Source of the DNA: Nitrososphaerota archaeon | GTDB lineage: Archaea > Thermoproteota > Nitrososphaeria > Nitrososphaerales > Nitrosopumilaceae | Assembly (NCBI GenBank): GCA_028867395.1 | Contig: JAGWGO010000001.1 | Location: forward strand, 1 to 35,047 | Reading direction: 5' to 3' | Length of the DNA stretch: 35,047 nucleotides | Part shown: positions 3,788-28,693 of the stretch, piece after piece | How positions within the stretch are numbered: position 1 is the first letter of the stretch | Layout: the number at the start of each line of letters is the position of its first letter | Made by a program: the position numbers and the translations under genes | Notes under the pieces: generated by a model | The model's input: only the letters and a program-made list of their open reading frames with translations | The model's database searches: none | Told to the model about the DNA's origin: nothing

Positions 3788-4963
3788 TCAAAGTGATTTA
3801 TGCGCAGGCATGACTTCTTGGTACATCTTGACAATTTTTTGGTACATTGATTCTTGGCTGTACTGTGTTACTAGCTTCTGGTATCCACTCTGGCCAGTCA
3901 ATTTGGCCTGCTCTGGATTTTTTATTGTATCAAGCAGAGCTTGAGCCCACATCTTTTCATCGCGTGAATCCAAGACATGCCCTGTAACTCCATCTGATAC
4001 GATATCGGACATGGGCTTGATGTCAGATACCAGTACTGGCTTTTTCTTTTCATATGCCTCTAGTATTACGAGCCCGAATCCCTCGCACAAGCTTGGGAAG
4101 ACAAGTGCTGCAGACTCTGAAATTATCCTTGACTTTACTTCTGCAGTTACATATCCCTTGAACTCGATGTTTTTCTCAAGGCCTAGTTTTTTTACCATCT
4201 CTTCAAGCGTCCTTCTGTGCGGGCCGCTGCCAACCAGTATTAGCTTGATCTCGGGCTCGGTCTTTCTTGCAATGTCAACTGCCTTTATTGCCACTTCGAG
4301 GTTTTTGTAAAAGACCAGCCTTCCAACGTAAACAAACTGCAGTGGGTTTTGCTTCGTGTTACCTACCTGAGTTGACTCTATTGCATTATGGATTACATGT
4401 ATTGGTTTTTTTGCGCCAAACTTTAGCAGGTCCTCTTTTGTCGCATCGCTGACTGTATGGATGCAGTGGTACCGAAGCTTTATCATGAATTTTTCAAAGA
4501 AGGGGGCAAGCCAGACATTCATCCTTGAGACATCGCTTTGCCTTCCCCACTCTTTCCAATAGTTTTTCCCGCAAAGCGAGAAGATGTCATGGACTGTAGT
4601 AATATGGGGTCTTGAGGTAAGGCTTGATAGTATCGAGCCTGCAAGTGCCGGAGCAAAGTTGTTGGAATGTATGATGTCTATCTTTTCATTTTTTATTATT
4701 TTGAGTCCTTGTTTTATTGCGTTTATTGCATATCTGATGTTGTCAGAGAATCCAGGCGGCAATCCTCCTTTGTATTGTAGTAGAGGGGGGACAAATATCA
4801 CTTGGATGTTTTTTAGATCTTTGTAATCCTCACCTTCGATCTTGTTTGTTATCACAAATACCTTGTTGTCGTTCTCGGCAAGTTTTTTTGCAACTATGCT
4901 GAAAACATACTCTCCGCCTCCTCTGGTTGTCGAGAAGAACTGGCTTAGGAGCAGGATGTTCAT
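3788..4963 (-). CDS. Glycosyltransferase family 4
   Basis: GGGE, HSNN, TVHD, VGRLVFYKN and EGFGLVILEA (EX7E) motifs. Confidence 0.95.
   Translation of the reverse strand: MNILLLSQFFSTTRGGGEYVFSIVAKKLAENDNKVFVITNKIEGEDYKDLKNIQVIFVPPLLQYKGGLPPGFSDNIRYAINAIKQGLKIIKNEKIDIIHSNNFAPALAGSILSSLTSRPHITTVHDIFSLCGKNYWKEWGRQSDVSRMNVWLAPFFEKFMIKLRYHCIHTVSDATKEDLLKFGAKKPIHVIHNAIESTQVGNTKQNPLQFVYVGRLVFYKNLEVAIKAVDIARKTEPEIKLILVGSGPHRRTLEEMVKKLGLEKNIEFKGYVTAEVKSRIISESAALVFPSLCEGFGLVILEAYEKKKPVLVSDIKPMSDIVSDGVTGHVLDSRDEKMWAQALLDTIKNPEQAKLTGQSGYQKLVTQYSQESMYQKIVKMYQEVMPAHKSL
4703..4963 (-). repeat. GT4 5' end, copy 1 (direct repeat with 19936-20196)
   Basis: 87 codons, about 69/87 aa identical to the orphan copy by manual count. 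Confidence 0.92.
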
Positions 4964-5100
4964 GAGATTTGGTAAAATGCAATCATTCTAGAATCTTTCG
5001 AAGACTGGGTTTAGGATGAGGCATCTAATCAGGCAGGTGTTCTTAGGTTGTAACTTGATAAAGTACGCATTGTGGAAATTCTCCTCAAATCCAGTAGTCT

Positions 5101-5297
5101 CCTGGGAGTAAGATGTCTGGTACATACTCCCAGGGCAACCCCATCCTATGGTAAGAGAAATAGGCTGCAAGCTACATTACCATCTACTGGTTCAAAAAGG
5201 TAGTTGCATAATTTTTTTTGATGTCATAAAAATTTATGTTAAAAAAATATTTAATTATAATCTAGCAAAAATAATTGCTCAAAACAAAATTTTTTAC
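5101..5297 (+). repeat. Non-coding hairpin + A-tract element, copy 1
   Basis: Perfect 10-bp stem CCTGGGAGTA/TACTCCCAGG (5101-5134) and motif ATCTAGCAAAAATAATTGCTCAAAACAAAATTTT (from 5260); alignable to 9577-9773. Confidence 0.85.
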
Positions 5298-5309
5298 ATT
5301 GACGTTTTG

Positions 5310-5852
5310 TCAGTGCAAACTCGTGTTCTTTATCTCAATAACAAGCGAATTGGAGGTACTATCGACAATTGCCTTTCTTCCAAGGTCTTTGAGCATCTGC
5401 ATATAGTACACCTTGTGAAAAAGCGACCACTTTGGTCCCAGCCCATGTGTGATAACTATCTTGGTCTGATTCGCATTGCGAAACTCTTGGTAGGCAAAGT
5501 TTGATCTTACCGACCTGTATCTTGTAATCAATAACCATGACTCGAGGTCTACCTTTCCCGAGATGGAAAGCAGGGTGTCTTTCATCACCGTCTTTGCAGC
5601 CTTTGTTGCAAGCCTTCTCAGGGTCTTTTCGCTCAAGCTATCTATGAATAATTTCATGATATCACTTTTTAACAAAACCCAGCCTGCCTTGGCTGACTTT
5701 CTATCCCAGCTAACATAATTGTCAAAGACTTGGTCGACAAGTGCATTGAGTGTTATCTTGTCCTCTTTTGCTGCATCGGATAATTTTTCTATGATTTGAG
5801 GATCAATTCTGAAGCTGATTGTTTTTTTGTCCTTTTTGCTGCCACTTGCCAT
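5310..5852 (-). CDS. Ribbon-helix-helix N-terminal domain protein (thaumarchaeal family)
   Basis: TISFRID...ITLNALVDQV RHH pattern; ITHGLGPKWSLF C-terminal motif. Confidence 0.8.
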   Translation of the reverse strand: MASGSKKDKKTISFRIDPQIIEKLSDAAKEDKITLNALVDQVFDNYVSWDRKSAKAGWVLLKSDIMKLFIDSLSEKTLRRLATKAAKTVMKDTLLSISGKVDLESWLLITRYRSVRSNFAYQEFRNANQTKIVITHGLGPKWSLFHKVYYMQMLKDLGRKAIVDSTSNSLVIEIKNTSLH

Positions 5853-6008
5853 ACTCTATCTTGTTTCTATTTAGAGGATTCCTTTTTTGTACCGTACTCA
5901 AGTAAACTGGAGATTGACTCCATTTTGTCAAGCAGGATTTTCCTATTTTTCAACATCTTGATTTGTTACTACATTGCCTTCGCCAAACTTTGAAGCGTAG
6001 ATTATCGA

Positions 6009-6803
6009 GTGATGGACCTTGGCGGCCCGATGCAGATATTTGCATCATCGCGTATAGCAGATGACATTAGAAGGCTATCTCCAGAGTACAAGGCAATCAT
6101 GCATCCTGTCGGTGACTATACTGTCAAGCATGGTGAACAGTTGTTAATCTACAACATTTACGGAGAGGGGTTTGGAAACAGGAACACTCCAAAGAAAGGC
6201 AAGGTGCAGAAATCCAAGGCCGCAGAGCAGGACCTCAAGAACTCTAACACATTTCACTTTTCAAGCGTTGACCTTGGGGTAAAGATAACAGATCCAAAAA
6301 CCATGATGGCCCGCCACACTTGGACGTGGGACATCAGGAACATATCGCCTGAACCAAAGGACCAGATTTTTTACTATCTTGACGGCGATGTTCCTAGAGA
6401 GTTTGCCGACATGAATGTTGTTGTGACAAATGGTTCAGGCAAGGAACTTGAGATAATATCATTGAATGTGAACAAGCCCTATCACAAGGAGTTTATCGTA
6501 AAGCTTGACAAGCCTTTGAAGCCAAACCAGACTAGCCAGAAGATTACCTTGCAGTATGACTGGGAGGAACCAGAGCGCAACTTTTTCTATAAAGTGTCAT
6601 CTGACTGCAAGCTGTTACAATATCACTTTACCATGCCAAAGGGCACAGATGTGAAAAATAGGGTGTTGAAGGTGGATCCGGAGACTGGGTACAAGACCCA
6701 TGCAACGCCTGCTGCAAAGGTGAAATATCACAAAGACAGGATAGAGATTTCGTGGGAGAAATCAAACCTTTCTGCATACGAGGCGTACAGGTTTGAGTGG
6801 TGA
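6009..6803 (+). pseudogene. 5'-truncated class III adenylate/guanylate cyclase-domain protein
   Basis: Begins at the tail of the cyclase domain (RVMDLG..QIFAS...VKHG). In-frame TGA at 5991; the catalytic N-terminal part is absent. C-terminal domain ends YRFEW. Confidence 0.75.
6731..6803 (+). repeat. Cyclase 3' end, copy A
   Basis: Encodes KDRIEISWEKSNLSAYEAYRFEW*; matches 10841-10913 and 7501-7550. Confidence 0.9.
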
Positions 6804-6891
6804 ATTTACAATCAGAGGAATTTTACTACCGCTCTTACCGTCGTTGATGGAACTAGAAAAATTAATACACATCTCAGGTACGACTATGCAC

Positions 6892-6899
6892 TTTTATAT
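6892..6899 (+). promoter_or_regulatory. Archaeal TATA box
   Basis: TTTTATAT about 24-31 nt upstream of ATG 6923 (leaderless spacing). Confidence 0.5.
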
Positions 6900-6922
6900 G
6901 CAATAATGTCCAAAACTAGAAC

Positions 6923-7111
6923 ATGGCAACTAATCTAACTGCGAAGGCATATCGCAAGGTTAGAGTGGCACCAAAAGACGAAGCAAAAATGATCGATACA
7001 CTATTGAAAACGGGTGAACAATTCAAAGCCGTATCAAAGAATGACTACTACATAACCACAAAACAATGCGCCACGCTAAGTAGAAATAAGATACCTTATC
7101 AAAAACTGTGA
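6923..7111 (+). CDS. Small basic hypothetical protein
   Basis: 62-aa ATG ORF with a TATA box; 1-nt gap to the next ORF. Confidence 0.65.
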   Translation: MATNLTAKAYRKVRVAPKDEAKMIDTLLKTGEQFKAVSKNDYYITTKQCATLSRNKIPYQKL

Positions 7112-7112
7112 A

Positions 7113-7445
7113 TTGCAGAAGCTGCAAAATAAAATAAAACTACATTTCAAATTACCAATTTATTATAACAATGGAAAACCGGTAGAAGAACAAAAACTCG
7201 TGGACGTAAAAAATTACTTTATTGACACTTATGGCGGTCTCACGGTAGATAGCAAATCAGAAGGATTTTGGAATGATGATGGTGTGCTCTTCACTAACCA
7301 AATTTTGGAATATTCTGTTTTTATTGCAAAAAATAGATTTGATAGAGAAGTGAAGAGAATAATTCCAAAACAACTGGAAATCTTTCGTAAACAGTTTAAA
7401 CAGATAGGGATATTCTGTTACTATCATCCTGTTGTTTCAACATAA
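7113..7445 (+). CDS. Hypothetical protein, DUF3574/PII-like fold candidate
   Basis: LPIYYNNG...YGGLTV...EGFWNDDG...FKQ pattern resembles the DUF3574 G-L-T-V...G-x-W pattern. Confidence 0.6.
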   Translation: MQKLQNKIKLHFKLPIYYNNGKPVEEQKLVDVKNYFIDTYGGLTVDSKSEGFWNDDGVLFTNQILEYSVFIAKNRFDREVKRIIPKQLEIFRKQFKQIGIFCYYHPVVST

Positions 7446-7500
7446 TTTGGTTATTTTATATCATCGTCATAATTTGCAATGTTCAATCCAGTCTTTATAG

Positions 7501-7576
7501 TAGGGCAAATCAGGCCCCTTACATTGGAAGCTTATAGGTTTGAGTGGTAGTTCGTCAGTCTAAAACATTATTAGAC
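7501..7576 (+). repeat. Cyclase 3' end, degenerate copy B with downstream flank
   Basis: Reads KSGPLTLEAYRFEW*, followed by AGTCTAAAACATTAT, a flank shared with copy C. Confidence 0.8.
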
Positions 7577-7598
7577 TCTAGAACCATACTCAAGACAG

Positions 7599-7684
7599 CG
7601 GCCGGGGGTGGGATTTGAACCCACGAGACATCACTGCCTTGAGATTCTGAGTCTCACGAAATAGCCTAGCTATCCGACCCGACC
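7599..7684 (-). tRNA. Atypical type II tRNA (or pseudo-tRNA), anticodon CAG
   Basis: T arm GTGGG-TTCAAAT-CCCAC; anticodon arm TGAGA-CTCAGAA-TCTCA; variable arm AGGCA-GTGA-TGTCT; acceptor GGTCGGG/CCCGGCC with one extra C; discriminator G. TTTTATGA about 25-30 nt upstream. Confidence 0.8.
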
Positions 7685-7899
7685 GAAATTCTTTGTATCA
7701 GTTAATCATAAAATACTGATCATAGAATCCAATCTGACCCCAAGTTAATCTTTGAAATTTAATTTTGATATCATGATTCCGGCCAGTCTCCGCCGCACTC
7801 GGGGCACCTTCCCCTAAATTCGTTGTATTTTGGCTCCGGTACCACAATAGCATTGTAGCATCCGCATGACTGGCACTGGGTCCTCTCGTAAAACAAGTC

Positions 7900-8169
7900 T
7901 TATTCCACCTGCTGTGTGCAGACAAGCGTAGTCGTGCAGCGTACCTCTGGAATCTTTCTTACCTTCAGCGATATCGCATCTCGTAACTCGTCAGGACTGC
8001 TTGCCTGAACAAGTGCCATGATGTCATGTCGACCTATGGTAAGAGTTGATTCCTTTATCTCAGGAAGTGTCCTAATCTCGTCAAGCACGTGTTCTTCGGA
8101 GCCAGACTCGCAGTTTATCATTACATAAGCCCTTGTCCTTGCCTTGTCTAGCTGGAACATCTCAGACAT
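7900..8169 (-). CDS. Lrp/AsnC ligand-binding (RAM) domain protein
   Basis: AYVMINCESG...GRHDIMALV...KVRKIPEVRCTTTL; no HTH. Confidence 0.9.
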   Translation of the reverse strand: MSEMFQLDKARTRAYVMINCESGSEEHVLDEIRTLPEIKESTLTIGRHDIMALVQASSPDELRDAISLKVRKIPEVRCTTTLVCTQQVE

Positions 8170-8278
8170 GGTATTCTATGGTATCTATGGAATGTATCCC
8201 AAGCTTGCGATACCAGCTAAGAACTTGCAGTATCAGCTAAACACGTGATATCAATCTTGGACTCGAAGATACCAGAGT

Positions 8279-8560
8279 ATGGCATCAAAGAACAATGTCA
8301 GGGAGGCTATTGTATCATATGCAATAGAAAAGGCCCTGATTGACTATGGCAACTCGGCACTAGAAGAGGTATACTACAAGCTGTACCACGAGTATGCCCT
8401 GCACTTTGTAGACTGTTACCACAACCCTGAGACGCTGCGAAAGGTCTTTCTTGAGACTTTTGGCGATGCGTACTGCAATATAGTAGAGCTTGTCAGGAAC
8501 CATCTTGGCGAGTATGCAACGCAGGAGCACATTCGCAAGTTTTTGAAGACAATTGAATGA
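8279..8560 (+). CDS. Small thaumarchaeal protein (NitrOD5/DUF3227-like)
   Basis: IEKAL..G..ALEEV..KL..EY...DCY.NPE.LR.V..E.FG pattern. Confidence 0.7.
   Translation: MASKNNVREAIVSYAIEKALIDYGNSALEEVYYKLYHEYALHFVDCYHNPETLRKVFLETFGDAYCNIVELVRNHLGEYATQEHIRKFLKTIE
8473..8560 (+). repeat. 88-bp direct repeat, copy 1 (gene 3' end)
   Basis: 82/88 identical to 9388-9475. Confidence 0.95.
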
Positions 8561-8594
8561 GTTTGATTAACCTTCCGAGTGAGAATATCAAGAT

Positions 8595-9008
8595 CTAATG
8601 TCCAACTATCTCAAGCATCCTCTCTACAGTCACTATCTTTATGCTATCAAATTCTCCGAGGTCAAGAATGTGTCTGTCTCCAGATACTATAAAATCTGCC
8701 TTGCCTCCAATTGCAGTAGCAAGTATCAGGTTGTCATCGGGGTCCTCCTCTATTGCATTTATCCCGCGTACAGGCCTGACATACCTGGCCGTATTGTCAA
8801 GTATCTTGACAAAATCTATAATGTCTCTATCTGTGAGATATGGCTGAAACTTTTTTCTCGAGATTACTCGCAAAAACTCAGATCTAATCTTGCCTGACAA
8901 GACGAGATTTAGTTCATTTCCTGCAACCTTGAGCCAGAGATGTCTTGGTTTTCCGTCAGCTATGAGAGCGGAAACTAGGATGTTGATGTCAAAGACTGCT
9001 GTGTGCAT
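8595..9008 (-). CDS. PIN-domain toxin (VapC-like, PIN_3/MJ1680 type)
   Basis: VFDINILVSA...EF...DPDDNLILATA...ADFIVSGDRHIL. Confidence 0.92.
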   Translation of the reverse strand: MHTAVFDINILVSALIADGKPRHLWLKVAGNELNLVLSGKIRSEFLRVISRKKFQPYLTDRDIIDFVKILDNTARYVRPVRGINAIEEDPDDNLILATAIGGKADFIVSGDRHILDLGEFDSIKIVTVERMLEIVGH

Positions 9009-9022
9009 GCCTGAAAACCCTT

Positions 9023-9310
9023 CTAGTGCTTTTTCTTCTCTGACCTGTACTGTTCAATCTCGCTTAGGATCTCTTCTTCACTAATTTTGCCGTATTTGGC
9101 AGTCCTTGCATCAACCCTTTTGTAGAGTGCCTTGAGATCCTTCAGTGCGTCTGGCATCTTCATCCTCTTCATGATGACGGTGTCCTTGTAGCCGTATACC
9201 AAGAGCTTTGTCTTGGGCTTGAGTCCCAGCTTTTTCCTCAATGATTGAGGTATTACCACCTGACCCTTTCCACTCACTACCGTTATGTCTTCTTCCTCAT
9301 GTTGCGTCAT
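9023..9310 (-). CDS. AbrB/MazE/SpoVT-family antitoxin
   Basis: SGKGQVVIPQSLRKKLGL; directly upstream of the PIN gene. Confidence 0.92.
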   Translation of the reverse strand: MTQHEEEDITVVSGKGQVVIPQSLRKKLGLKPKTKLLVYGYKDTVIMKRMKMPDALKDLKALYKRVDARTAKYGKISEEEILSEIEQYRSEKKKH

Positions 9311-9387
9311 GTGTATATTCTTACTTTCTTACTTTACATAGATAACCGTTGCGGCAATGGGCTTTTTGGGATGCCTGTAAACGCCTG

Positions 9388-9475
9388 CTGCAATATAGTA
9401 GAGCTTGTCAGGAACCATCTTGGCGAGTATGCGACACAGGAGCACATACGCAAGTCTTTGAAGACGATCGAATGA
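9388..9475 (+). repeat. 88-bp direct repeat, copy 2 (orphan gene 3' end)
   Basis: Encodes CNIVELVRNHLGEYATQEHIRKSLKTIE*. Confidence 0.95.
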
Positions 9476-9576
9476 CCCATTTGAGTATTCATAGGGTCTA
9501 CAATTCCTTCCACGATGCTTTATCACACCTTGAATAGGGCAATTGTACTCGTGCCAGAATTCTAGTTAACAATTCT

Positions 9577-9773
9577 CCCGAGAGCAAGATGTCTGGTGCA
9601 TGCTCCCGGGGCAACCCCATCTGTTGGTAAGAGAAATCAGGTTGCATGTCTTGTCGGGGCTTTCCTGCTCAAAAAGATACCTATGTGGAGTTTTGTGCAC
9701 CGGCAAAAATTATCAATAAAGAAACATCTGATAAGAATCTGGCAAAAATAATTGCTTAAAACAAAATTTTTAC
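9577..9773 (+). repeat. Non-coding hairpin + A-tract element, copy 2
   Basis: Stem CCCGAGAGCA/TGCTCCCGGG with two compensatory changes relative to copy 1; motif ATCTGGCAAAAATAATTGCTTAAAACAAAATTTTT. Confidence 0.85.
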
Positions 9774-9820
9774 GTTCCAATTTATAGCAGGGATGGAGGT
9801 GTCCGGTATTTACTAAATCG

Positions 9821-9828
9821 TTTAATAC
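9821..9828 (+). promoter_or_regulatory. Archaeal TATA box of the GH5-like gene
   Basis: TTTAATAC about 22-29 nt upstream of TTG 9850. Confidence 0.45.
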
Positions 9829-9849
9829 TAAAGCGCCATCTAAATTCTA

Positions 9850-10913
9850 TTGTCGTTTCAGGCAGGCTCTAGGTTTCTTGTCGGAATAAACAACGGTTGG
9901 TTTGCAGGACAGTACGACCATGACCTGGGATACAACCAGTTCTCAGTCATTCGGCTGTATGACAACCCAATACCTGACCCGTCCCTTCCTGATCCAAGTC
10001 CTGCCAAGCCATACATATCAAGTAATCCAGGAGACGTGACAAGCTTTTTTCAGAATGTACAATCTGCACAAAAAAACTTGGCCGTGGTTCGCGTCTGGGC
10101 ATTTGAGAGGTTTGAAGGTTTGCAGTTTGACAACAGCTACAACGTGACAGGACTTGACGCCGAGTTCTTGGCAAACCTTGGAAAGGTGCTTGATGCCGCA
10201 AATGCAAACGGTGTGCAGGTATACCTGTGCCTCTTTGATTTCTGGGCAGTATATGGTCCCCCCCGCAGGACATTGTAAACGCGGGCAAGACTTTGGACTA
10301 TACAAACCTGCAGGGTACCTGGAAGAAGATAATCAAGTCTCTTTTCAAAGACTCTGCGGCACTTGCCAAGTTTACATCAAACGCGCTTGTACCTCTGGTA
10401 AACCAGGTTGGGTCGCATCCCGAAATATTTGCAATCGACCTCATAAACGAGCCAGAGTGCCTGATGCAGAAAGACACCATGGTTTTTTCTGATATTCAAA
10501 ACTTTATCGCACAATGTTCAAGCTCGATCAGATCTGCAAACTCTTCAGTCAAGATATCTTGCGGTTTTATGGACTATAACACGGCAAAGAGCAACTCCGG
10601 CTCGCTTGCGCAGTACCTGGACTTTTTTGACTTTCATGTGTACAACACGGACGGATCCCTTGTAGCCTATTCCCAGTCGGACTTTGCGGGCAAGCCGTGC
10701 ATAGTTGGCGAGTGCGGCTATCCTGAGGGAAATGTTCCGTATGACGCGACAAGGGAGGTTCCGGTTGCGCAGACATTTCTTTCAAACGCATCACAGCTTG
10801 GGTATGGAGGATGCCTCTTGTGGTATACCGATTACACAAACAGGGACAGAACAGAGATATCTTGGCAGAAATCAAACCTCGCTGCATACGAAGCATATCG
10901 GTTTGAGTGGTAG
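9850..10913 (+). pseudogene. GH5-like (clan GH-A) glycoside hydrolase, frameshifted at a C7 tract
   Basis: ORF1 has VVRVWAF and VYLCLFDFW. ORF2 has IDLINEPE (acid/base), FHVY, IVGECG (nucleophile) and GCLLW. The frames join at the C7 tract 10258-10264. Confidence 0.85.
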
Positions 10914-10980: not shown

Positions 10981-11124
10981 GAGATTTGTTCTCAGTATTG
11001 GGATACAGATCTCCTTAACACATGACAAGAAGAAAAAGAATTTCATTTTTTGTGTTCATAAAAATTATCATAAAAAAATATCTGATGATAATCTGACAGA
11101 AATATTTGGATAAAACAAAAATTT
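10981..11124 (+). repeat. Hairpin + A-tract element, copy 3 (diverged)
   Basis: Hairpin GAGATTTGTTCTCA-GTAT-TGGGATACAGATCTC; then CATAAAAATTATCATAAAAAAATATCTGATGATAATCTGACAGAAATATTTGGATAAAACAAAAATTT, alignable to copies 1 and 2. Confidence 0.65.
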
Positions 11125-11200
11125 CTATATCGGATTCTGACTTGCTCTCTTTTGTAATTGTTAAACTACAAAGGACAAAGCCAAATCTGTTCATTGTGTC

Positions 11201-14200
11201 CTACCCGAATTTCTTTTGTGCAAACTTGGCTATTTGTAAGACTAGTTTTGCTGTCAGTATGGCCGAGACTGCTAGTATTGTTAAGACCAGAAATGAGGTT
11301 GACGCCGTCAACAAGTAGTTGTTATCATTCAGTAATGCTATCGTAACGATTATCAAAATCGCAGGTAATGGTGTCAATGCTACTTTGTAGTTGAATCTAC
11401 TCTTACGCACTTGTCTTACTAACAGTGCAAATGGTGATAGATACACGCTGCCAATTAGCGTGCATGCAAGTATGCCGTAGGAAAGTATGCCCAATTCTCC
11501 GTTGACATAGTTGTAAGGCTTTTCAGAATATTCTAATATGTAGAGCATGGGATAGATAGAAAACTTTACTGTTTGCTGGAACCAAGGATTTTGTATCTCG
11601 TACGATGAAATCGGCTCACTGGCCGAGAAATACAAAGGATTGAATACCTTCATAAAATCTGCACCAACCCTTGTAGAGTCTATAGAATTGTCTCTGAAAT
11701 CTTTTATTGATTGCAATTGCGAAGTTGGTTCTTTGTGGTCTGCCAAGTCTCCTCCAAAGGCAGCTGATGCTCCACAAATGCCAGAATTAGGAGTGGTAAC
11801 GCTAAGAACGTCTGACGGCTTGGATGTCGTTCCAGTAGCATTGATGGATGATACGCGATAAGCATAGGCGGTACTTCCTGAAACGCTTGCATCAGAGTAT
11901 GAAGTAGAGCTAGTGTTTGATAATATGATCCAATGACCACCGTTAGTTGACCTTTCTATCATATATCCTGTAATCTGTGAATAAAGACATGAGGAGGGTT
12001 GATTCCATGAAAGGCTTACATCGGAGCTTGTTAGACTGGTGTACCCAAGTCCTGATGGAGGATAGACAAGGTGGACTGATCTCATCTCTGGAGAGATTCC
12101 TCCATCTTGTTGATTACAATTGTTTTGGCTAAACGCTGCGATAAATAACGTCGAATTGGGATTCCGTAATGGGTCGTTTGATGGCACAAAAGTATAGCCA
12201 GATGCAAGCCAGCCGCAGTCATTTTCAAGAGGCCTGATCCGTACATAATCTCCAAAATCAGGAGCATCCTTCCTTGAACTCATTAAGGTATCATAAGGCA
12301 CCCATGGAATGTCAGAGGTGCTGGTATAATTCTCCAAAGTCGCGCTGTCGACTATCCCGATATTTGCTACCGGTCCCGCGGTTCCATTATTATATGCTAT
12401 CCACCCAAGTCCGTGGGAAGTCGGATACGAGTTTGCATACATCCATGGAGTGGAACTGCTTGCCATGTATGGGTTGCCTATGTAAGTCAGGTTATCTGCA
12501 TAGAACATTGCAGCGTTAACAAAAGGATAGGAAAGACCTGCTGTTGAGTTGGGATACGCATTCCAAAAGAATCCTATACGGTTTCCAACCTGCCATCCAT
12601 TCAATACTCTGGTGTCAGCACCTCCGCACCAGTTATCATGGCTGCAATTCATGGGTTGGCTTGATTGTGAGACCCAAGGATCTATTTTTACAAGGGTGGG
12701 CTGTGCAGTATTATCACTGTTGTACCACCTCAATATTGTTAGGTGGGTATTGTTATTTGTCTGAGTTGCAAAGAACATTGGATCGCTTGCCCCTTGAACT
12801 GGAGCAGTCGTATAATTTGCATCGCTTATGATGCTAAAATCTATCTGAGGGTTTACTGCAGGATCTTCTAATTGAGTCGGATCTATCCGCATGATTACAT
12901 TATCAACCCTATTTGATGCACTTGAGGAAGAAATTTCGACATTTGCGGTAACAAACAAAAATTTGTCTGTTATTGCAAGCTGTGGGTATTCCCACCAAGC
13001 AGGCTGTCCAGTCCAATCTGTAAAGTTGCTGATTGCAATATCAATAGACCGCCAATTTTGTAGATCTTTTGAGACTGACAGTCTTACCTTTTCATTTGCA
13101 AGATTCCAACCAGGATCTGGGGCAGTCATCTGTTCCCAGATGAAAATTTGGTGTTTTGGGTCGTAAATTACATCTTGGTCGATACAAGGATTGGAGACGT
13201 AATTAGTTGATAACTTGGACATGTACTTCCAAGTTGTTCCATTATCTGTAGATATGGCATTGTCTACATTGGTTGTGTAAAATATGAAAGAGCCATTTGT
13301 TGCAACCGCAGGTTCCAACTTTGATTCTCCGACAAAGCTTGTCTTGAACGGAATTTTTTTGTTTAGAGTTTTAATAGGTGATGTAGGAAGTATAGGCATT
13401 TCATGTCTGGGAGTTGACTCTATGTGAAGGGAACGTATAGCAAAGTTATCCATATAATGCAGTGCGTGAGGAATTGAAAAATTCACCATGCGTGTCATTT
13501 TTTCGGGGATGTCAATTGCATCAATTTTTGCATCTAATACTCTTAGTTCAGAAAAGGACAATACCGGAGGGGTGTTTTGAAATATGGCATGAAAACTGTG
13601 AACTGTATAAGGCTGTGATCTTTCTGCTGTCATACGCATTCCAATAAATGAATTTGATGTCAGAGTCATTTGAGAAGGAAGAACAAACGGGCCTGTTGGT
13701 GTGGGTATGGTTCTATCCTCATAGGAGGCAGTAACAGTATCCACCTCTGAGACATGTAGCTTGTTGCCAAACGAGTTTGATTTTGTAAAGTAGACAATTC
13801 CCTGGAAGATGCCAGAACCTGCTGAAGTCTCTGTCACCATGACCTGTACACCATGAGGGTCGGTGTTAGACCAGACCTTTATCGGAAAAGAGTTGACAAG
13901 TTTTGGGTAAAGTGACATGTCTGGGTCTACAACCTGTATTACTCCCTGACTCCCATGAGAATAGCTAGAGTGCAACCAAGATATCTCGCCTATGTTCCAT
14001 CGTATCACAGATGATCCTGTGACAACTTGGTTTGTCCCCGCATGAAATGATACGGATATGTCATCATTTCCTTCTGCGGGAAGCAGTCCGTCTGTGGGAC
14101 CCGTGCCGCTTGGACCCTGACCTGACGGCTTGAATTGGCTGCCATAGATGCTAAAGTCCCTTGCAGTCGGATCTCCTGTAAGGATAACATAACCCGTAAA

Positions 14201-14542
14201 GACTCCTGTGTTAAGACCGGACTCGACAAGTTTGTAATTGGTAATAGTGTGGTTTCTTGTAGCTACTGTAACCATAACGGAATCAATCGCATTGTGGTTG
14301 GTATTGTTTGCCGGAGCATTTACAGTGATGTATACTCGATCAGTCCAAGAGTATACACTCTGGTCTAGTTTTACTGTTGCAGAAGGCGATCCAAAGGCTT
14401 CTTGATATGAAAACCCAACGTTCGTCTCTGAATTATTGTTTGGAGTTATCCATGAAAACGTGTCAGAGACAAGAGGCGAAAAAATAAAGAGCGCAAAAAC
14501 AATTGAGGCAAGGTAAAATAGTCTTAAACTCTTCGAGTGCAA
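11201..14542 (-). CDS. Large cell-surface protein: S-layer-like domain, probable beta-propeller, FN3, CFI-box-CTERM-like tail
   Basis: Signal peptide; ESGLNTGVFTG and ETSAGSGIFQG repeats; Asp-box STDNGTTW; LSW...Y.YRVSSIN (FN3); CGASAAFG..LA...KDFRDN...G..FM..FN..Y plus three transmembrane helices. Confidence 0.85.
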   Translation of the reverse strand: MHSKSLRLFYLASIVFALFIFSPLVSDTFSWITPNNNSETNVGFSYQEAFGSPSATVKLDQSVYSWTDRVYITVNAPANNTNHNAIDSVMVTVATRNHTITNYKLVESGLNTGVFTGYVILTGDPTARDFSIYGSQFKPSGQGPSGTGPTDGLLPAEGNDDISVSFHAGTNQVVTGSSVIRWNIGEISWLHSSYSHGSQGVIQVVDPDMSLYPKLVNSFPIKVWSNTDPHGVQVMVTETSAGSGIFQGIVYFTKSNSFGNKLHVSEVDTVTASYEDRTIPTPTGPFVLPSQMTLTSNSFIGMRMTAERSQPYTVHSFHAIFQNTPPVLSFSELRVLDAKIDAIDIPEKMTRMVNFSIPHALHYMDNFAIRSLHIESTPRHEMPILPTSPIKTLNKKIPFKTSFVGESKLEPAVATNGSFIFYTTNVDNAISTDNGTTWKYMSKLSTNYVSNPCIDQDVIYDPKHQIFIWEQMTAPDPGWNLANEKVRLSVSKDLQNWRSIDIAISNFTDWTGQPAWWEYPQLAITDKFLFVTANVEISSSSASNRVDNVIMRIDPTQLEDPAVNPQIDFSIISDANYTTAPVQGASDPMFFATQTNNNTHLTILRWYNSDNTAQPTLVKIDPWVSQSSQPMNCSHDNWCGGADTRVLNGWQVGNRIGFFWNAYPNSTAGLSYPFVNAAMFYADNLTYIGNPYMASSSTPWMYANSYPTSHGLGWIAYNNGTAGPVANIGIVDSATLENYTSTSDIPWVPYDTLMSSRKDAPDFGDYVRIRPLENDCGWLASGYTFVPSNDPLRNPNSTLFIAAFSQNNCNQQDGGISPEMRSVHLVYPPSGLGYTSLTSSDVSLSWNQPSSCLYSQITGYMIERSTNGGHWIILSNTSSTSYSDASVSGSTAYAYRVSSINATGTTSKPSDVLSVTTPNSGICGASAAFGGDLADHKEPTSQLQSIKDFRDNSIDSTRVGADFMKVFNPLYFSASEPISSYEIQNPWFQQTVKFSIYPMLYILEYSEKPYNYVNGELGILSYGILACTLIGSVYLSPFALLVRQVRKSRFNYKVALTPLPAILIIVTIALLNDNNYLLTASTSFLVLTILAVSAILTAKLVLQIAKFAQKKFG

Positions 14543-14568
14543 CTCGCCTCACAAACTATTTTTAAAAT

Positions 14569-16467
14569 CTAAGGTCTCCTTCGTTTTGACCAGATGGCAA
14601 TACCTATGATTACTGCCGCTACAGCAATGCCAACAGCTACTGCTACTGTTTGATCTGGATTTGGTCCGGGAGGCGGGACTGATTGTACAGTTACAGATGT
14701 AGAGTTGGAACTTGACAAGCCGTTGCTATCATAAGCCGTTGCATTAATTGTAAAAGTTCCTCCCTGAGAATAGGTGTGAGTCTGTGGGAACTGACCGCTA
14801 GATGTCTGACCGTCGCCCCAGTTCGTGTCTATTTTTGTAATTGATGCACCTTGAGTTGTAGCTTGAGCTTGTCCATTGACACTTACTGAAAGGCCATTTA
14901 ACGTAGCAGCGATGCTAATTGTGGGAAGAGTTTGGAGTGAACCTGTGGGAGCCGCATCAGAATGTGAGAGGCCTCCGCCAATATCCTCACCTTCGTTTGC
15001 TTGGGGTGCGGATTGGTAGAAATTAGTGCTGTTTCTAAAGCTAAGTGGCTGAGGAGTGCCTGCATCTCCATTTTGGATATAGTTCCAGTCGTTGTAGCCT
15101 GTAAGCGTTGTTAACGTAGTGGTACTACATGAGATAGATGGTAGGTTGTTGAGAACTTGGGAATATGATCCACTGCCTACGCCATTTTGGTTCCAGTCGT
15201 CTGTAGTGCCTGTGTATCCAGTCGCCGTACCTCCAGAATACGACCACCAGATTGGTCTTTGACCACTAGTGGGGCATGATGATGGCTGGTTTGCTTCAGT
15301 GCCTGCAGGAGGCGGAGGGTTATTTGATGGGTATTGGTAGCTTCCAACGTCAGAGTCTGCCAGATTGTTCTCGTTTAGGTTTGCAAGAGCTGTGTTAGAA
15401 AAGTCAAGAGGCCTGCAAACATCTGCGGTCTTTCTGAAAAGGTATGTGTACGACATTACAGAGAGATAGTTTGGCTTGCAGTTGTTCATGTCCGCTGCCG
15501 TTCCTGTCCTGCCGCCATGTCCTAACCCAAAGTTGTGGCCAATCTCGTGCATAAGCTCTGCCTCCTGCTCGTCAGTAGTACCTACACCATTTTCAAAGTT
15601 ACCAAGTGAGATTACCATGTCATTGCCAAATATCTCTCCCCAGCCAGAATACTGTGGGTTTTTGTATTGATAGTTGACAAATGTGACATAATGGAATACC
15701 TGCCTCTTTGCTGTAAGGCAGTTGTAAGCGTTGGCGTTTGTGATTGTTCCTCCAGGGCTACTTGGTACTGCATTTGAAGGGCAGTACACTGTGTTTCCTT
15801 GCCTTTCTGCAACAGTGCCAAAGGTGTGCTGTTTTATCCACGTGTAACTTTGAAAGTCCGTGTTCCCTGTGGTGCATGAGCTTTGAGGCGTTCCATAGTT
15901 TGCAGTATTGAGAACATTTACGTAGCAGTAAAAGAGTCCAGTGTCTCCGCTGTTTGTTGATGGATTCTCTCCCCACTGGACATGCAACTGGATTCCTTGA
16001 TTGTAAAATGCCTTGACCACATCAGTAACTACCTGAGAGCTCGGACACAAGCCATGCATGCAGTCAAGCTCGATGTAGATGTCCTTTTTGGCAGTAGAGG
16101 GACAGACAGACAATCCCGTAGGATCATTTGCAATTGTATTTCCAGGAGTACAGGGTAAGTTGTAGACATAGGTAACTGGATAGGTACTAAGGTAACTGCT
16201 TGTAAAACTTATGTCGAGGCCTGCGTTTGAGCCTGAGCTTACCTTCCAGTTATCACAGACGCCGTCCTTTACGGCATTTCCTCCGTATGCAGCGCAGCTA
16301 TAGGGGTCCTTTCCCCCAGCACCAAAATTTGCATAAGTGTTATCTGAAGACAGAAAAGAGCTCTCATCGCTGTTGAGGGCTAACGCAGGCACCAAGCCAA
16401 CTGCTATCATAGAAAGTGAGAAGATCAAAATGATGTGTACCGGACCTACCACAACCAACCCGCTCAA
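14569..16467 (-). CDS. Membrane-anchored metzincin zinc metalloprotease with PKD domain
   Basis: HEIGHNFGLGH, Met-turn SVMSY, NWGDG..HTY (PKD), C-terminal transmembrane helix plus KRRR. Confidence 0.88.
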   Translation of the reverse strand: MSGLVVVGPVHIILIFSLSMIAVGLVPALALNSDESSFLSSDNTYANFGAGGKDPYSCAAYGGNAVKDGVCDNWKVSSGSNAGLDISFTSSYLSTYPVTYVYNLPCTPGNTIANDPTGLSVCPSTAKKDIYIELDCMHGLCPSSQVVTDVVKAFYNQGIQLHVQWGENPSTNSGDTGLFYCYVNVLNTANYGTPQSSCTTGNTDFQSYTWIKQHTFGTVAERQGNTVYCPSNAVPSSPGGTITNANAYNCLTAKRQVFHYVTFVNYQYKNPQYSGWGEIFGNDMVISLGNFENGVGTTDEQEAELMHEIGHNFGLGHGGRTGTAADMNNCKPNYLSVMSYTYLFRKTADVCRPLDFSNTALANLNENNLADSDVGSYQYPSNNPPPPAGTEANQPSSCPTSGQRPIWWSYSGGTATGYTGTTDDWNQNGVGSGSYSQVLNNLPSISCSTTTLTTLTGYNDWNYIQNGDAGTPQPLSFRNSTNFYQSAPQANEGEDIGGGLSHSDAAPTGSLQTLPTISIAATLNGLSVSVNGQAQATTQGASITKIDTNWGDGQTSSGQFPQTHTYSQGGTFTINATAYDSNGLSSSNSTSVTVQSVPPPGPNPDQTVAVAVGIAVAAVIIGIAIWSKRRRP

Positions 16468-16687
16468 ATAACTTGGAATTTGGTTTTAAGACTTGCTGTG
16501 AGGTTTGGAAACGCGTAATAGAATTTTGGTAATTGTAACAATTTTATCAAATATTTGCATTTTATTGTTATAAATGGAAAATTTTCACAAGCAGTTGCAA
16601 ATTGAGAAAAAAAGGAGAAATACCTCGCTGGGTAGATCGATTCTGGGGTGGGAGAATTTCAAAAAAGTACAATTCTCTTGTAAAAAG

Positions 16688-18406
16688 ATGAAAAATCTAA
16701 ATATCCTGCTTTTAGTTCTTTGTGGAGGAATATTTTTTGCTACAGTACCACATGCCCTTGCCCAGCCAACAATAACTTGGGATTGTGGTTCGTTTTGCTC
16801 GCATTCCCTCTCTGATGGCGCGGTTGGATCCTTTTTTTCTCCAACAACATCGCAGTTCACGGTAAGCGATCCATCTCTTGCCTCTCCCACTTTGAACCAC
16901 ATCATAGTGCTTGTAAACTCTACAACTGATCCTTCTGGCATCACACTAAACCTTACAGAGACTGCTCCAAACAGCGGGATGTATACAAACACCAACCTCA
17001 TCTTTACAAACGGAACTGGCACCTTTGGAGTCTCAAGCAGCCAGACAATTGGAATAAACAATCCGTCGCTAATTACCGACGCAACAAAGGTAGAGACTCT
17101 AGTTGGTGATGTCATGGTCTTTTCAACTACAGATACCACTGGCATATCGATGAACCTTACAGAGACAGGTCCTGGAACTGGAATCTTTACTGCAACACTG
17201 CAATTTACAAGCGGTCCATCTGTTAACGGCAAGTCAATTAGCGTTCAAGCTGGAGACACGGTTACAATAATGGACTTTTTAAATTTTGATGTAACAAATG
17301 AGCTAGTTACACCAAACCCCGATCCTGCATTTGGTGCTCTGCCGTCATCATATGGCGACGAGGTCGATGCAGTATTTGATGGGGTAAAGGCGCCAATGTA
17401 TCTCAATGCAGGATCCGCGCCAGGCGGAGGGGGAGGTGGACTCATTCGACCAAGTACGGTACTTGACCTGGCCCTTGGCGGGGGAAAGAGTGCAGACACA
17501 TTTGATCCCCCAAGCATAGGAAACGACTATTACTATCGGTTCGGTGGCGGAGTAACAATTAACAACAAGCCATTTACCATTGCAAACTATTCGACCACAA
17601 TCCTGCAGCAAGTACTTGACATCGGCAAGCCTGCAAAGTTTGGCTTTAAGATATTTGACGAGAGGGGTGCATATACGATTTCGGACGTGGTGATGTACTT
17701 CCACTTCAAGGGAGACCCGTCGCCCCAAAATGCTGACACCTGGATATCGTGGGACAGGTCCAGGGGGCCATTAACACACGACCCAAACGGCATCTTCAGC
17801 GCAACCAGCATCAACACGACAATCTCCGGCAAATATCTTCTTGCCAACTTTACGATGGTTCCGCAAAAGACCATGCCTGACTCGAGCTTGATAATGAGGA
17901 TGTGGGACGACAAGCTTGCAATGGGCGACGTGCCAATATGGGGTGCGATTGTAATTGTAGACCCCAATGCACCTGTGCCTGTAAAGAAGGTGCCTGATAA
18001 CCAGTATGGAGACTATGTCACACTTGAGAACATTCTTGGCAGGGACGGGTACGACATACCCTTGATGCTAAACAAGATGCACAGTCTTGCCGACATCTAC
18101 ACCTCGCTTGAGATAAACTGGGTTTACGACAAGGGGGTGGACAAGCTAACAATGGTGGAGTCTGACAAGTCAGGCAACCTAATGGGGGAGCTTGTGTGCA
18201 ACCTCACCAAGAAGATAGTACAACCCAAAGTGACAGACCATGGCTATTTTCTCTTTACTACAAAGCAGCTAAACAGGCAGGACGTTCAGGGTGAGGAGGC
18301 TGCAAAACTTGCCGAGGCAGACAAGGCACTCAAGCTCGTTCAAAGTCTTGGCCTTGTGAGGCAGAACAACTTTGATATATTGAACGGTACAATGCCCAGG
18401 ACATAG
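16688..18406 (+). CDS. Secreted S-layer-like surface protein
   Basis: Signal peptide from ATG 16688; LTETAPNSGMY and LTETGPGTGIF repeats; Gly linker; PPSIG motif. Confidence 0.8.
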   Translation: MKNLNILLLVLCGGIFFATVPHALAQPTITWDCGSFCSHSLSDGAVGSFFSPTTSQFTVSDPSLASPTLNHIIVLVNSTTDPSGITLNLTETAPNSGMYTNTNLIFTNGTGTFGVSSSQTIGINNPSLITDATKVETLVGDVMVFSTTDTTGISMNLTETGPGTGIFTATLQFTSGPSVNGKSISVQAGDTVTIMDFLNFDVTNELVTPNPDPAFGALPSSYGDEVDAVFDGVKAPMYLNAGSAPGGGGGGLIRPSTVLDLALGGGKSADTFDPPSIGNDYYYRFGGGVTINNKPFTIANYSTTILQQVLDIGKPAKFGFKIFDERGAYTISDVVMYFHFKGDPSPQNADTWISWDRSRGPLTHDPNGIFSATSINTTISGKYLLANFTMVPQKTMPDSSLIMRMWDDKLAMGDVPIWGAIVIVDPNAPVPVKKVPDNQYGDYVTLENILGRDGYDIPLMLNKMHSLADIYTSLEINWVYDKGVDKLTMVESDKSGNLMGELVCNLTKKIVQPKVTDHGYFLFTTKQLNRQDVQGEEAAKLAEADKALKLVQSLGLVRQNNFDILNGTMPRT

Positions 18407-18473
18407 CCCTTGCAAAACTTTCATCCATAAAGATCCATTTTTCCCTAGTGTTTTTCATAATAGGAAAGGGACC

Positions 18474-19682
18474 TCACGTCCTTTGGAAATTTGCTTCTGT
18501 CACAGTGGTCCCGTTATACTCTACATGAACCCGCTGGGGACCTGACAAGAATTGGCTTGTGACATCAAACGTTGTGGTAAAGTTTCCCCACCTGTCTGCC
18601 GTGACATTATTGTCGTCTTGATTGTTATTACCAAAATAGACGTCATACTGTATGTTTGGCATAAAGTTTGAACCGTTTACTGTAACCATTGTGTTGACAG
18701 GACCGGAAGGGGGATATGCGTGAATAACTGGCGGGTCCAGTATGGTCACAGTCCTTACCAGGTCAAGAGGACCTGTTGGGTATGACCCGTTATACTCTAT
18801 CCTGTAGACGCCTGCTTTGGCATACTTGTGGGATGGATTGGAATCAAAAGAGGCAGAAGACCCGTCTCCAAAGCTCCACACTTGGCTCTGGGCAGCACCA
18901 AGGACTGAGAGGGCGGCGGGACCTGACTGTTCAATAAAATTCAGCGACCTGTTTGCCCAGAACACCATCTGCAGAGGACTTGGGACATTGCTATCGTAAC
19001 CCACGGAGATATAGCCTGTTAGATTCATATCGTTTGAGACTGTCATAACGCAAAAGTCCCTGTTCTCGGCAGGTATTCCCTTCGAGTCCACCGTTACAAA
19101 CCCGTTGTAGGTCTGTTTGCCGGAATACTGATGGCTGGGATTGGAATACCCCTCTATCTTCGGTTCACCAGTGTCTCCCTTGAGCCAAGTCCACTTGAAG
19201 AAGGGGGCTGTAAGGTTTGTTGAGACTGAAAATCCTGCATAGTCGCCCTCGACTATAACGCCCTCGTACTGGTCAAACCTTTCTATGTTCTTAAAATCCA
19301 CGGCGTTCACTGTTACTGTGAAATTTTCCCTGTCTCTTCCAATCTTCATTTTTGCATCTTTCCACTCTGTGACACTGCCACTGAACTGGCGACTAGTCCC
19401 GTTCTCTAGTCTGTATTCGTGATTTACTACGACGCTTGTATTGTTCTCCTTGATGCCATCGCCCCAATCCCATGTCTTCAATGTATAGACCTCTGCCCCC
19501 CTGAGGAAGAATCCCTCCATGAAGGGGTTTGTGCCGACATGCGAGCAGAGGGTAAGGTTGTCTTTTCCTGTGGGAATCTGGCTTGCCGTGATTTGCTGAC
19601 CTTGCGGGTGATAAAGTACCAAAAAGAGTACTGCCGCTGCGATTGCTGCTCCTGCTATGATGAAGACATAGCGGTACCCCAT
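18474..19682 (-). CDS. PKD-domain surface protein
   Basis: N-terminal transmembrane helix; WDWGDG..HEY, NPSHQY, WSFGDG..NPSHKY; C-terminal Ig-like domain. Confidence 0.85.
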   Translation of the reverse strand: MGYRYVFIIAGAAIAAAVLFLVLYHPQGQQITASQIPTGKDNLTLCSHVGTNPFMEGFFLRGAEVYTLKTWDWGDGIKENNTSVVVNHEYRLENGTSRQFSGSVTEWKDAKMKIGRDRENFTVTVNAVDFKNIERFDQYEGVIVEGDYAGFSVSTNLTAPFFKWTWLKGDTGEPKIEGYSNPSHQYSGKQTYNGFVTVDSKGIPAENRDFCVMTVSNDMNLTGYISVGYDSNVPSPLQMVFWANRSLNFIEQSGPAALSVLGAAQSQVWSFGDGSSASFDSNPSHKYAKAGVYRIEYNGSYPTGPLDLVRTVTILDPPVIHAYPPSGPVNTMVTVNGSNFMPNIQYDVYFGNNNQDDNNVTADRWGNFTTTFDVTSQFLSGPQRVHVEYNGTTVTEANFQRT

Positions 19683-19783
19683 CGATTCGCAGTATGCGTT
19701 CCTAATCTTAAGGCTATCTGAGCAGAAGAATGATATCATGAAAAAAATTGCAAGATTGGCTGGTTTTTAAAAACAATTCTTGG

Positions 19784-19895
19784 AAAAATTTGCATTGGGT
19801 AATTAATTTGACAGATGTCTTGGCAGCAGTACGTGTGTAATTATCAAGTCTGGTACTCGAGCTTGGCCTATTTATCGCAGGAAGCGGTATGCTTC
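19784..19895 (-). repeat. Hairpin + A-tract element, copy 4 (inverted, diverged)
   Basis: Minus strand ATCTGTCAAATTAATTACCCAATGCAAATTTTT (19816-19784); hairpin GGAAGC-GGTAT-GCTTCC at 19879-19895. Confidence 0.5.
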
Positions 19896-19935
19896 CCATG
19901 GTGGGAAAAAGCCTTCTTGTAGTGGGTCTTGTCGC

Positions 19936-20196
19936 AAGTCCCTGCCTTATTGCATTGATTGTGTACCTGATGTTGTCTGAGAATCCTGGGGGCAGCCCTC
20001 CACTGTACTCAAGTGTGGGCGGCACAAATGTTACACGGATGTTTTCGCGCTGCTCGTATTTTTCGCCCTCAATCCTGTTTGTTATCACAAACACCCTGTG
20101 GTTGTTCTCTGCAAGCTTTTTTGCAATGAGGCTGAACACATACTCGCCTCCGCCCCTCGTGGTCGAGAAGAACTGGGAGAGCAAAAGGATGTTCAT
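19936..20196 (-). pseudogene. Orphan 5' fragment of the GT4 glycosyltransferase
   Basis: MNILLLSQFFSTTRGGGEY...NAIRQGL, after which homology to 3788-4963 stops abruptly. Confidence 0.92.
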
Positions 20197-28692: not shown

Positions 28693-28693
28693 G

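What the first reader, a model, noticed from the sequence alone, without database searches (positions are those of the whole stretch)
4703..20196. Nested, integrase-free gene cassettes bounded by diverged duplicates of host gene ends
Seen: three separate cases of cargo lying between direct, diverged copies of a protein-gene end. These are the GT4 5' end (4703-4963 / 19936-20196), the cyclase 3' end (6731-6803 / 7501-7550 / 10841-10913) and the NitrOD5-like 3' end (8473-8560 / 9388-9475). The smaller units nest inside the larger. No integrase or intact transposase is in the window. Established: integrative elements often carry a replacement copy of the target gene end. Inference: this locus repeatedly takes up cassettes by gene-end replacement at unrelated protein genes, which would be an integron-like accretion platform with the recombinase acting in trans or via host RadA/XerA.
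Basis: partly seen in the sequence, partly recalled or inferred. Interest (0 to 1): 0.82.

Follow-up and report, generated by a model that had tools for sequence, protein, structure and literature searches.

The report
Recombinase-free cassettes leaving orphan gene ends
In a variable island of an ammonia-oxidising archaeon, small gene pairs such as toxin-antitoxin modules sit between two diverged copies of a host gene's end, and relatives show the same sites empty and the same cargo at other genes; the cargo most likely arrives from related lineages by host recombination anchored on one side, a known process in bacteria, rather than by an integron-like enzyme.

Summary
All three gene-end repeats are real. 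Relatives in the genus hold empty alleles (Fic-GT4 contiguous; cyclase and NitrOD5-like ends without cargo), and the same cassettes recur at unrelated targets, some with their own 29-524 bp duplications. There is no integrase, attC site or shared border motif, so it is not an integron. The GT4 and cyclase orphans differ from the intact genes like orthologues from another species (mostly third-codon changes, no stops), which favours donor-plus-recipient alleles joined by homology-anchored illegitimate recombination (inferred, about 0.55). The 15-kb GT4-bounded span is not shown to be one cassette, and the third cyclase end is a microhomology fusion to a broken hydrolase. Closest known: 'insertion with long target duplication' (Furuta 2010) and arrays attributed to homology-facilitated illegitimate recombination in Vibrio. 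The scan has already noted both such cassettes and this tRNA family on other DNA. Verdict: new variant of a known kind.

The parts
3788..4963 (-). Intact GT4 glycosyltransferase (391 aa); its 5' 261 bp are the left copy of the GT4 repeat
5098..5299 (.). Non-coding repeat A, copy 1; A lies upstream of the intact hydrolase gene in G049:C21
6009..6803 (+). 3' half of a class III cyclase-domain gene; 5' half lost at a 9-of-11 bp microhomology join near 6005-6015; last ~70 bp are cyclase end copy B1
6923..7445 (+). Two-gene cassette (62 aa + 110 aa, unknown function, DUF3574-like predicted fold); found at 8 other places in the genus, one with its own 37-bp duplication
7522..7551 (+). Orphan cyclase 3' end B2, followed by the flank that follows the intact cyclase in relatives
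7558..7576 (.). Imperfect palindrome conserved about 20 bp downstream of many tRNA-like genes of the genus; function unknown
7598..7684 (-). Serine-type tRNA-like gene: 7/5 cloverleaf, long variable arm, G discriminator, anticodon CAG (family usually GAA)
8279..8560 (+).
8595..9310 (-). AbrB/MazE-type antitoxin plus PIN toxin cassette; found at other sites in 7 relatives, 2 with their own duplications
9388..9475 (+). Orphan NitrOD5-like 3' end (first 45 bp identical, 6 differences in the last 43 bp)
9574..9776 (.). Repeat A, copy 2, upstream of the hydrolase
9850..10848 (+). Broken GH5-like hydrolase (split into two frames, 3' end missing); intact 445-aa gene in G049:C21
10845..10933 (+). Orphan cyclase 3' end B3 fused in frame to the hydrolase at a short microhomology, with a remnant of the palindrome
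11046..11130 (.). Repeat A, copy 3 (AT-rich part only)
11201..19739 (.). Four large surface/secreted protein genes (FN3, metallopeptidase-PKD, S-layer-like, PKD); two have homologues downstream of the NitrOD5-like gene in relatives
19937..20197 (-). Orphan GT4 5' end, open frame, allele-like divergence from the intact gene
20193..20437 (-). 3' fragment of a Fic gene; Fic-GT4 is contiguous with an intact GT4 in G001:C71

Best explanation
The window is part of a hypervariable island where cargo lies between an intact gene and an orphan copy of that gene's end, and this most likely arises when DNA from a related lineage recombines by homology into a shared gene on one side and is joined illegitimately on the other. 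Shown: the repeats, the empty alleles, the same cargo at unrelated targets, the orphans keeping the old flank, allele-like divergence, and microhomology at two internal joins. Inferred: RadA-type strand exchange in the shared gene lets the donor supply a new gene end plus whatever follows it; the far end of the donor piece is joined into the recipient a short way inside that same gene end, so the recipient's old end is pushed behind the cargo. Repeated events with different anchors would give variable repeat lengths, unrelated targets, nesting and broken genes without any dedicated recombinase. Toxin-antitoxin pairs likely persist because losing them is costly (established knowledge, not tested). 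A circular donor integrating by one crossover would give the same product and cannot be told apart here.
For: Empty alleles: G001:C71 matches window 19937-20437 at 75% and continues into an intact GT4; cyclase is followed directly by palindrome and tRNA-like gene in G013, G049, G067, G046, G053, G061; 8 of 8 relatives with an intact NitrOD5-like gene and sequence beyond it lack the AbrB/PIN cassette and second end (G013, G020, G008, G049, G067, G046, G053, G077). Same cargo elsewhere: AbrB/PIN between 92-bp (88%) repeats of a tRNA-like promoter in G068:C128 and 29-bp repeats in G020:C13; the 62+110 aa pair between 37-bp (97%) repeats in G020:C24; another pair at three targets with 42-55, 165 and 524 bp repeats, including the single-contig genome G070; AbiEi/AbiEii at the GT4 3' end. 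Differences between window copies: 56 of 85 at third codon positions, no stops or gaps (P 9e-10 against one third, 2e-4 against my rough 0.46 expectation for decay of one copy). GT4 intact versus orphan 14/9/40 by codon position, the same spectrum as 7 cross-species orthologue comparisons (14-19/2-12/35-47). Microhomology at the RHH-cyclase and hydrolase-cyclase joins. RadA present.
Against: Most cassette copies in relatives show no flanking repeat within 1.5 kb: 5 of 7 full AbrB/PIN copies and 7 of 8 copies of the 62+110 aa pair. The NitrOD5 copies are closer to each other (93%) than to any relative (70-90%), and an h147 orphan in two relatives has a premature stop; both fit plain duplication of the target followed by drift. 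No relative showed the donor arrangement (cyclase or NitrOD5 followed by the same cargo). GT4 trees were unresolved, so donor and recipient could not be assigned. ComEC and DprA were found in 0 of 5 genomes, so the route of DNA entry is unknown. Microhomology was seen at deletion-type joins, not tested at the cassette borders. All empty alleles come from other species at about 75-83% identity.
Confidence: 0.55

Rival explanations
1. True long target duplication: break repair or re-replication copies the recipient's own gene end on both sides of incoming cargo, and the copies then drift apart.
For: NitrOD5 pair is 93% identical with 45 exact bp and shares states against relatives; several repeats in relatives are 93-97% identical; h147 orphan with a stop. 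This is the reading of Furuta 2010 for restriction-modification units.
Against: GT4 and cyclase orphans differ by 17-24% with no stop or gap and an orthologue-like codon spectrum. The cargo identified here encodes PIN, HEPN, nucleotidyltransferase and Fic domains, not restriction enzymes.
Confidence: 0.25
2. A tyrosine recombinase acting in trans with low sequence specificity inserts circles carrying a piece of the target.
For: The genome encodes two tyrosine recombinases on other contigs. Archaeal pTN3 integrase recombines identical stretches of 104 bp or more (passage in PMC8371274). A conserved palindrome follows the tRNA-like genes.
Against: No attC-like sites; both enzymes score far below the IntI and XerA cut-offs; repeats are long, diverged and of variable length, whereas thaumarchaeal att sites have a median of 17 bp; no common border or terminal motif seen.
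Confidence: 0.12
3. Old tandem duplication of the region followed by deletion and decay.
For: The window holds broken genes and deletion joins.
Against: Orphans are not decayed; the cargo between repeats is unrelated to the duplicated genes and occurs at other sites.
Confidence: 0.05
4. Chimeric metagenome assembly of strains.
For: The window is a whole contig of an 80% complete, 294-contig genome; the NitrOD5 repeat has 45 exact bases; no reads could be laid.
Against: The GT4 and cyclase repeats share at most 16 and 13 exact bases, too few to join an assembly graph; the same architecture occurs in several independent genomes, including single-contig G070.
Confidence: 0.03

Closest known systems
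Insertion with long target duplication (Nobusato et al. 2000, seen only as a citation; Furuta et al. 2010, PMC2853133, passages and two sections read)
   Same: Insert under 20 kb, no mobility gene, long variable direct repeats that span a start or stop codon and leave the target intact, empty site in a relative, occasional gene fusion.
   Different: Cargo is toxin-antitoxin and unknown pairs rather than restriction-modification genes; host is an archaeon; many events are stacked in one island; two of the repeats behave as alleles from different lineages rather than copies of one target.
Arrays attributed to homology-facilitated illegitimate recombination: Vibrio cholerae T6SS immunity arrays and rhs orphan 3' ends (Kirchberger et al. 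2017, PMC5361080, passages read)
   Same: New module enters through a homologous anchor, old gene end is shifted back as an orphan, successive events build an array, no integrase known.
   Different: There one locus and one anchor are reused; here at least six unrelated anchors (GT4 both ends, cyclase, NitrOD5-like, h147, YdjM, tRNA-like promoter) are used across the genus.
Thaumarchaeal integrated mobile elements at 3' ends of protein genes (Krupovic et al. 2019, PMC6563490, passages and section 6 read; supplements not seen)
   Same: Same phylum; target is the 3'-distal part of protein genes; gene end restored; nesting occurs.
   Different: Their att sites are short (median 17 bp, only 7 of 68 over 25 bp); here repeats are 29-524 bp, diverged, and bound mostly two-gene cassettes.
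Allo-tRNAs (Mukai et al., PMC5389517, passages read), for the tRNA-like gene
   Same: Long variable arm and G73 pointing to serine identity, non-serine anticodon, toxin-antitoxin neighbourhood.
   Different: Ours has a normal 7/5 acceptor/T arrangement, is archaeal, and the family is fixed on GAA (CAG in this copy).

Membership tests
Insertion with long target duplication (Furuta 2010 criteria) | Insert shorter than 20 kb with no mobility genes | tested here: met
   Repeat spacings 747, 915, 4110 and 15233 bp; no integrase or transposase
Insertion with long target duplication (Furuta 2010 criteria) | Duplication longer than 30 bp, matching one copy at an empty site | tested here: met
   261, 88 and 67 bp; B1/B2 about 29 bp is borderline; empty sites are in other species, not strains
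Insertion with long target duplication (Furuta 2010 criteria) | Cargo includes restriction and modification genes | tested here: not met
   Cargo is AbrB/PIN, unknown pair, hydrolase, surface proteins; works like the class but is not an RM unit
Integron or attC cluster | Integron integrase | tested here: not met
   None in window; the two genomic tyrosine recombinases score 16 bits or nothing against a 265-bit IntI cut-off; genome is 80% complete
Integron or attC cluster | attC sites (inverse core and core, paired hairpin; consensus recalled, not from a call) | tested here: not met
   0 sites in 4701-20200 versus 0-2 in 8 shuffles; no Rfam match above cut-off
Thaumarchaeal integrase-type iMGE | Short, near-identical att repeats of fixed position | tested here: not met
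   Cyclase-end repeats are 29, 67, 87 and 524 bp in different events; identity 76-97%
Homology-facilitated illegitimate recombination | Homologous anchor on one side, with donor and recipient alleles side by side | tested here: inconclusive
   Allele-like divergence met for GT4 and cyclase, ambiguous for NitrOD5; trees unresolved
Homology-facilitated illegitimate recombination | Microhomology at the illegitimate join | tested here: inconclusive
   Seen at two internal joins; donor sequence at cassette borders unknown
Homology-facilitated illegitimate recombination | Dependence on RecA/RadA and DNA uptake | not testable with these tools
   RadA present; ComEC and DprA not found in 5 genomes
Allo-tRNA | 8/4 or 9/3 acceptor/T-stem fold | tested here: not met
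   7/5 cloverleaf
Allo-tRNA | Long variable arm plus G73 with a non-serine anticodon | tested here: met
Allo-tRNA | Charged with serine and active in translation | not testable with these tools
   No expression or aminoacylation data

The most novel reading that the evidence does not exclude
Nitrosotalea-type archaea keep an open, recombinase-free cassette platform in which any shared gene end serves as a docking anchor, and one class of cargo and anchor is a mobile serine-charged tRNA that misreads phenylalanine codons; the copy in this window has switched its anticodon to CAG and would put serine at CUG leucine codons, an archaeal parallel of CUG ambiguity, acting as an RNA toxin or defence beside the toxin-antitoxin pairs.
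Probability: 0.12. Interest if true: 0.85.

Novelty: new variant of a known kind. Interest (0 to 1): 0.46.

Why it matters
The mechanism behind insertion with long target duplication is unresolved in the paper that surveys it (Furuta 2010 offers DNA breakage as a hypothesis and notes no evidence for release or re-infection). This island gives many events at unrelated genes in one genus and a sequence test, codon-position spectrum, which indicates that at least two 'duplications' are donor and recipient alleles. It suggests how toxin-antitoxin pairs move in archaea without transposase or integrase, and it warns that long diverged direct repeats at gene ends are not by themselves att sites. The tRNA-like gene offers a direct test for natural mistranslation in archaea.

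Tried and rejected
Sequencing runs: none was listed, so no reads were laid; this is no evidence either way. Metagenome scan with the 93-aa protein gave 2 loci, both other species at 75-81% DNA identity, so no same-species empty allele. Viral scan with the PIN protein found no relative. GT4 trees for mosaicism had 0 of 11 (5' part) and 1 of 10 (3' part) strongly supported inner branches. In one search, two of nine repeat pairs were unusable (G019 cyclase misaligned by a gap; G053 hydrolase in the wrong frame); the statistics use the four window pairs only. Direct-repeat density is not diagnostic: 6 pairs in this contig versus 51 in 1.63 Mb of much shorter contigs, which I did not classify. The palindrome at 7558-7576 was considered as a recombination site: homology often ends near it, but it is not duplicated around cargo, and the Nitrosopumilus and Nitrosarchaeum copies looked at lack it; left unexplained. 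Repeat A was found in only 2 of 62 relatives and had no Rfam match. The pattern scans of genome and viral collections mostly returned bacterial and phage tRNAs whose loop I read as ordinary Ser(UGA); none of the 23 viral rows resembled the archaeal family (part of the genome rows was cut from the output). Literature: 8 searches listed no paper on such cassettes or this tRNA family in Nitrososphaerota; supplements of Krupovic 2019 and Mukai were not read and could hold cases.
Full report
Observation. A self-comparison confirms all three repeats at the stated places: GT4 5' end, 261 bp at 76%; the 3' end of the 93-aa gene, 88 bp at 93%; and the cyclase 3' end, 67 bp at 84%, with a shorter middle copy of about 29 bp. 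E-values run from 6e-48 to 1e-5. No integrase or transposase was found among 30 ORFs or by tblastn with the genome's own recombinases. Two features were missed: non-coding repeat A in three copies, and a tRNA-like gene at 7598-7684. The window is a whole contig of an 80% complete genome.

Setting. In 7 of the 20 regions fetched the homologous region lies beside tRNA-Gln(UUG). Gene maps show a shared set of genes (membrane protein, h147, YdjM, GT4, cyclases, Lrp, the 93-aa gene) in changing order, with toxin-antitoxin pairs (VapBC, MNT-HEPN, AbiEi/AbiEii, Fic, AbrB/PIN) at different positions. It is a hypervariable island.

Empty alleles. G001:C71 matches window 19937-20437 at 75% and runs on into an intact GT4, so Fic-GT4 is a real allele. 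In G013, G049, G067, G046, G053 and G061 the intact cyclase is followed by the palindrome or its variant and the tRNA-like gene, which in the window follow orphan B2. Eight of 8 relatives with an intact 93-aa gene and sequence beyond it lack the AbrB/PIN pair there. In G019:C2 a fragment of that gene is followed by repeat A, as the window's orphan is. So in each case the orphan keeps an older flank, which is the signature of gene-end replacement.

The same cargo at other targets. AbrB/PIN lies between 92-bp repeats of a tRNA-like promoter and 5' end in G068:C128 and between 29-bp repeats in G020:C13; 5 of 7 full copies show no repeat of their own. The 62+110 aa pair lies between 37-bp repeats in G020:C24; 7 of 8 copies show none. 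A further pair sits at the h147 end (42-55 bp; G013, G046 and single-contig G070), at the cyclase end (524 bp; G019) and beside Fic (165 bp; G011). AbiEi/AbiEii sits at the GT4 3' end (52 bp) and a YgiT-finger gene at the YdjM end (84 bp). Borders share no motif that I could see, and homology between cassette copies ends at their own promoters.

Are the orphans decayed copies or alleles? Across the four window pairs 56 of 85 differences fall at third codon positions, with no stop or gap. For GT4 the spectrum (14/9/40) equals that of cross-species orthologues. The GT4 and cyclase orphans are therefore pieces of genes that were functional in another lineage. The 93-aa gene pair is different: the copies are 93% identical, closer to each other than to any relative, with 45 exact bases, which also fits true duplication. 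Trees could not assign donor and recipient.

Corrections to the nested-cassette picture. The window cyclase has lost its 5' half at a join with 9 of 11 matching bases, and copy B3 is fused to a truncated hydrolase at a short microhomology; the hydrolase is intact in G049. The genes inside the 15-kb GT4 span occur in similar order in G020 and G067 with no second GT4 end in the fetched stretches. The span is better read as one haplotype of the island laid into another and then altered by further gains and deletions (inference).

Mechanism. The simplest process that yields diverged, variable-length repeats at unrelated genes without a recombinase is homology-anchored additive recombination: strand exchange in a shared gene, an illegitimate join on the far side of the cargo, and displacement of the old gene end. 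This is inferred, not shown. RadA is present; ComEC and DprA were not found in 5 genomes, so how DNA enters is open. True target duplication remains a fair rival, above all for the 93% pair. An integron-like system is unlikely: no attC-like sites, no IntI, and thaumarchaeal att sites are much shorter.

Comparison with known systems. The anatomy matches 'insertion with long target duplication' as defined by Furuta 2010, except for the cargo. I was led to that class by earlier notes of this scan and then read the paper. The mechanism matches the model proposed for Vibrio T6SS immunity arrays. Krupovic 2019 describes thaumarchaeal elements at protein-gene 3' ends, but with short att sites.

The tRNA-like gene. 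It scores just under the Rfam tRNA cut-off (28.5 versus 29 bits). Twenty aligned copies keep a cloverleaf with changes on both sides in 16 of 20 pairs, 92% of cells paired against 36-50% in slid controls. By my count of the 44 family rows printed (two pairs are near-duplicates; four ordinary tRNA rows set aside), 39 carry GAA; the others are CAG (this window), GAG, GUC and two broken loops. A strict pattern finds 1-5 copies in 11 of 63 genomes of the genus, and copies occur in records named Nitrosopumilus and Nitrosarchaeum. Long arm plus G73 point to serine charging by analogy with allo-tRNAs, which is untested. The scan had already noted this family in another ammonia oxidiser. What is added here is that these genes are themselves targets of the duplicating insertions and that this copy has a leucine anticodon.

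Verdict. Real, recurrent across the genus, and a new archaeal, toxin-antitoxin-rich variant of a known bacterial phenomenon; not an integron. Interest 0.46.

Noticed in passing
window 7598-7684 (-); own genome C160:2614-2705: Serine-type long-armed tRNA-like family, GAA in most copies, CAG in the window copy; a second copy with GAA lies on contig C160.
   Followed up: partly
window 7558-7576 and 10919-10936: Imperfect palindrome about 20 bp downstream of many tRNA-like genes in the genus, at constant distance; homology between paralogous loci stops just after it. Function unexplained.
   Followed up: partly
window 5098-5299, 9574-9776, 11046-11130: Repeat A: a GC-rich part with a hairpin plus an AT-rich part; upstream of the hydrolase in G049:C21, present in only 2 of 62 relatives, no Rfam match. 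Possible regulatory leader or small RNA.
   Followed up: partly
L146:1501-1571: A Nitrosopumilus tRNA-like copy whose 3' acceptor strand is replaced, with a second T-arm start shortly after; looks like an insertion into the T arm.
   Followed up: no
L280:438-528, 1347-1487, 1895-2012: Three partial or whole tRNA-like promoter and 5' copies in tandem in G068:C128, with AbrB/PIN between the first two.
   Followed up: partly
window 7775-7900: Non-coding stretch downstream of the Lrp gene conserved at about 74-79% in relatives, GC-rich; not examined for structure.
   Followed up: no
window 21669-29656: Cluster of two phosphodiesterase/sulfatase-family genes, APS kinase, PIG-L deacetylase, subtilase and aldo-keto reductase at lower G+C (35-39%); likely a surface sulfation or modification island.
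   Followed up: no
L033:4248-5585 and window 11201-14542: The intact hydrolase of G049 and the window's FN3 protein both carry a CFI-box-CTERM sorting domain; the window's hydrolase has lost it.
   Followed up: no
L012:5317-6711, L041:17103: Cdc6/Orc1-like genes inside the same island in some relatives, a hint of plasmid or virus input.
   Followed up: no
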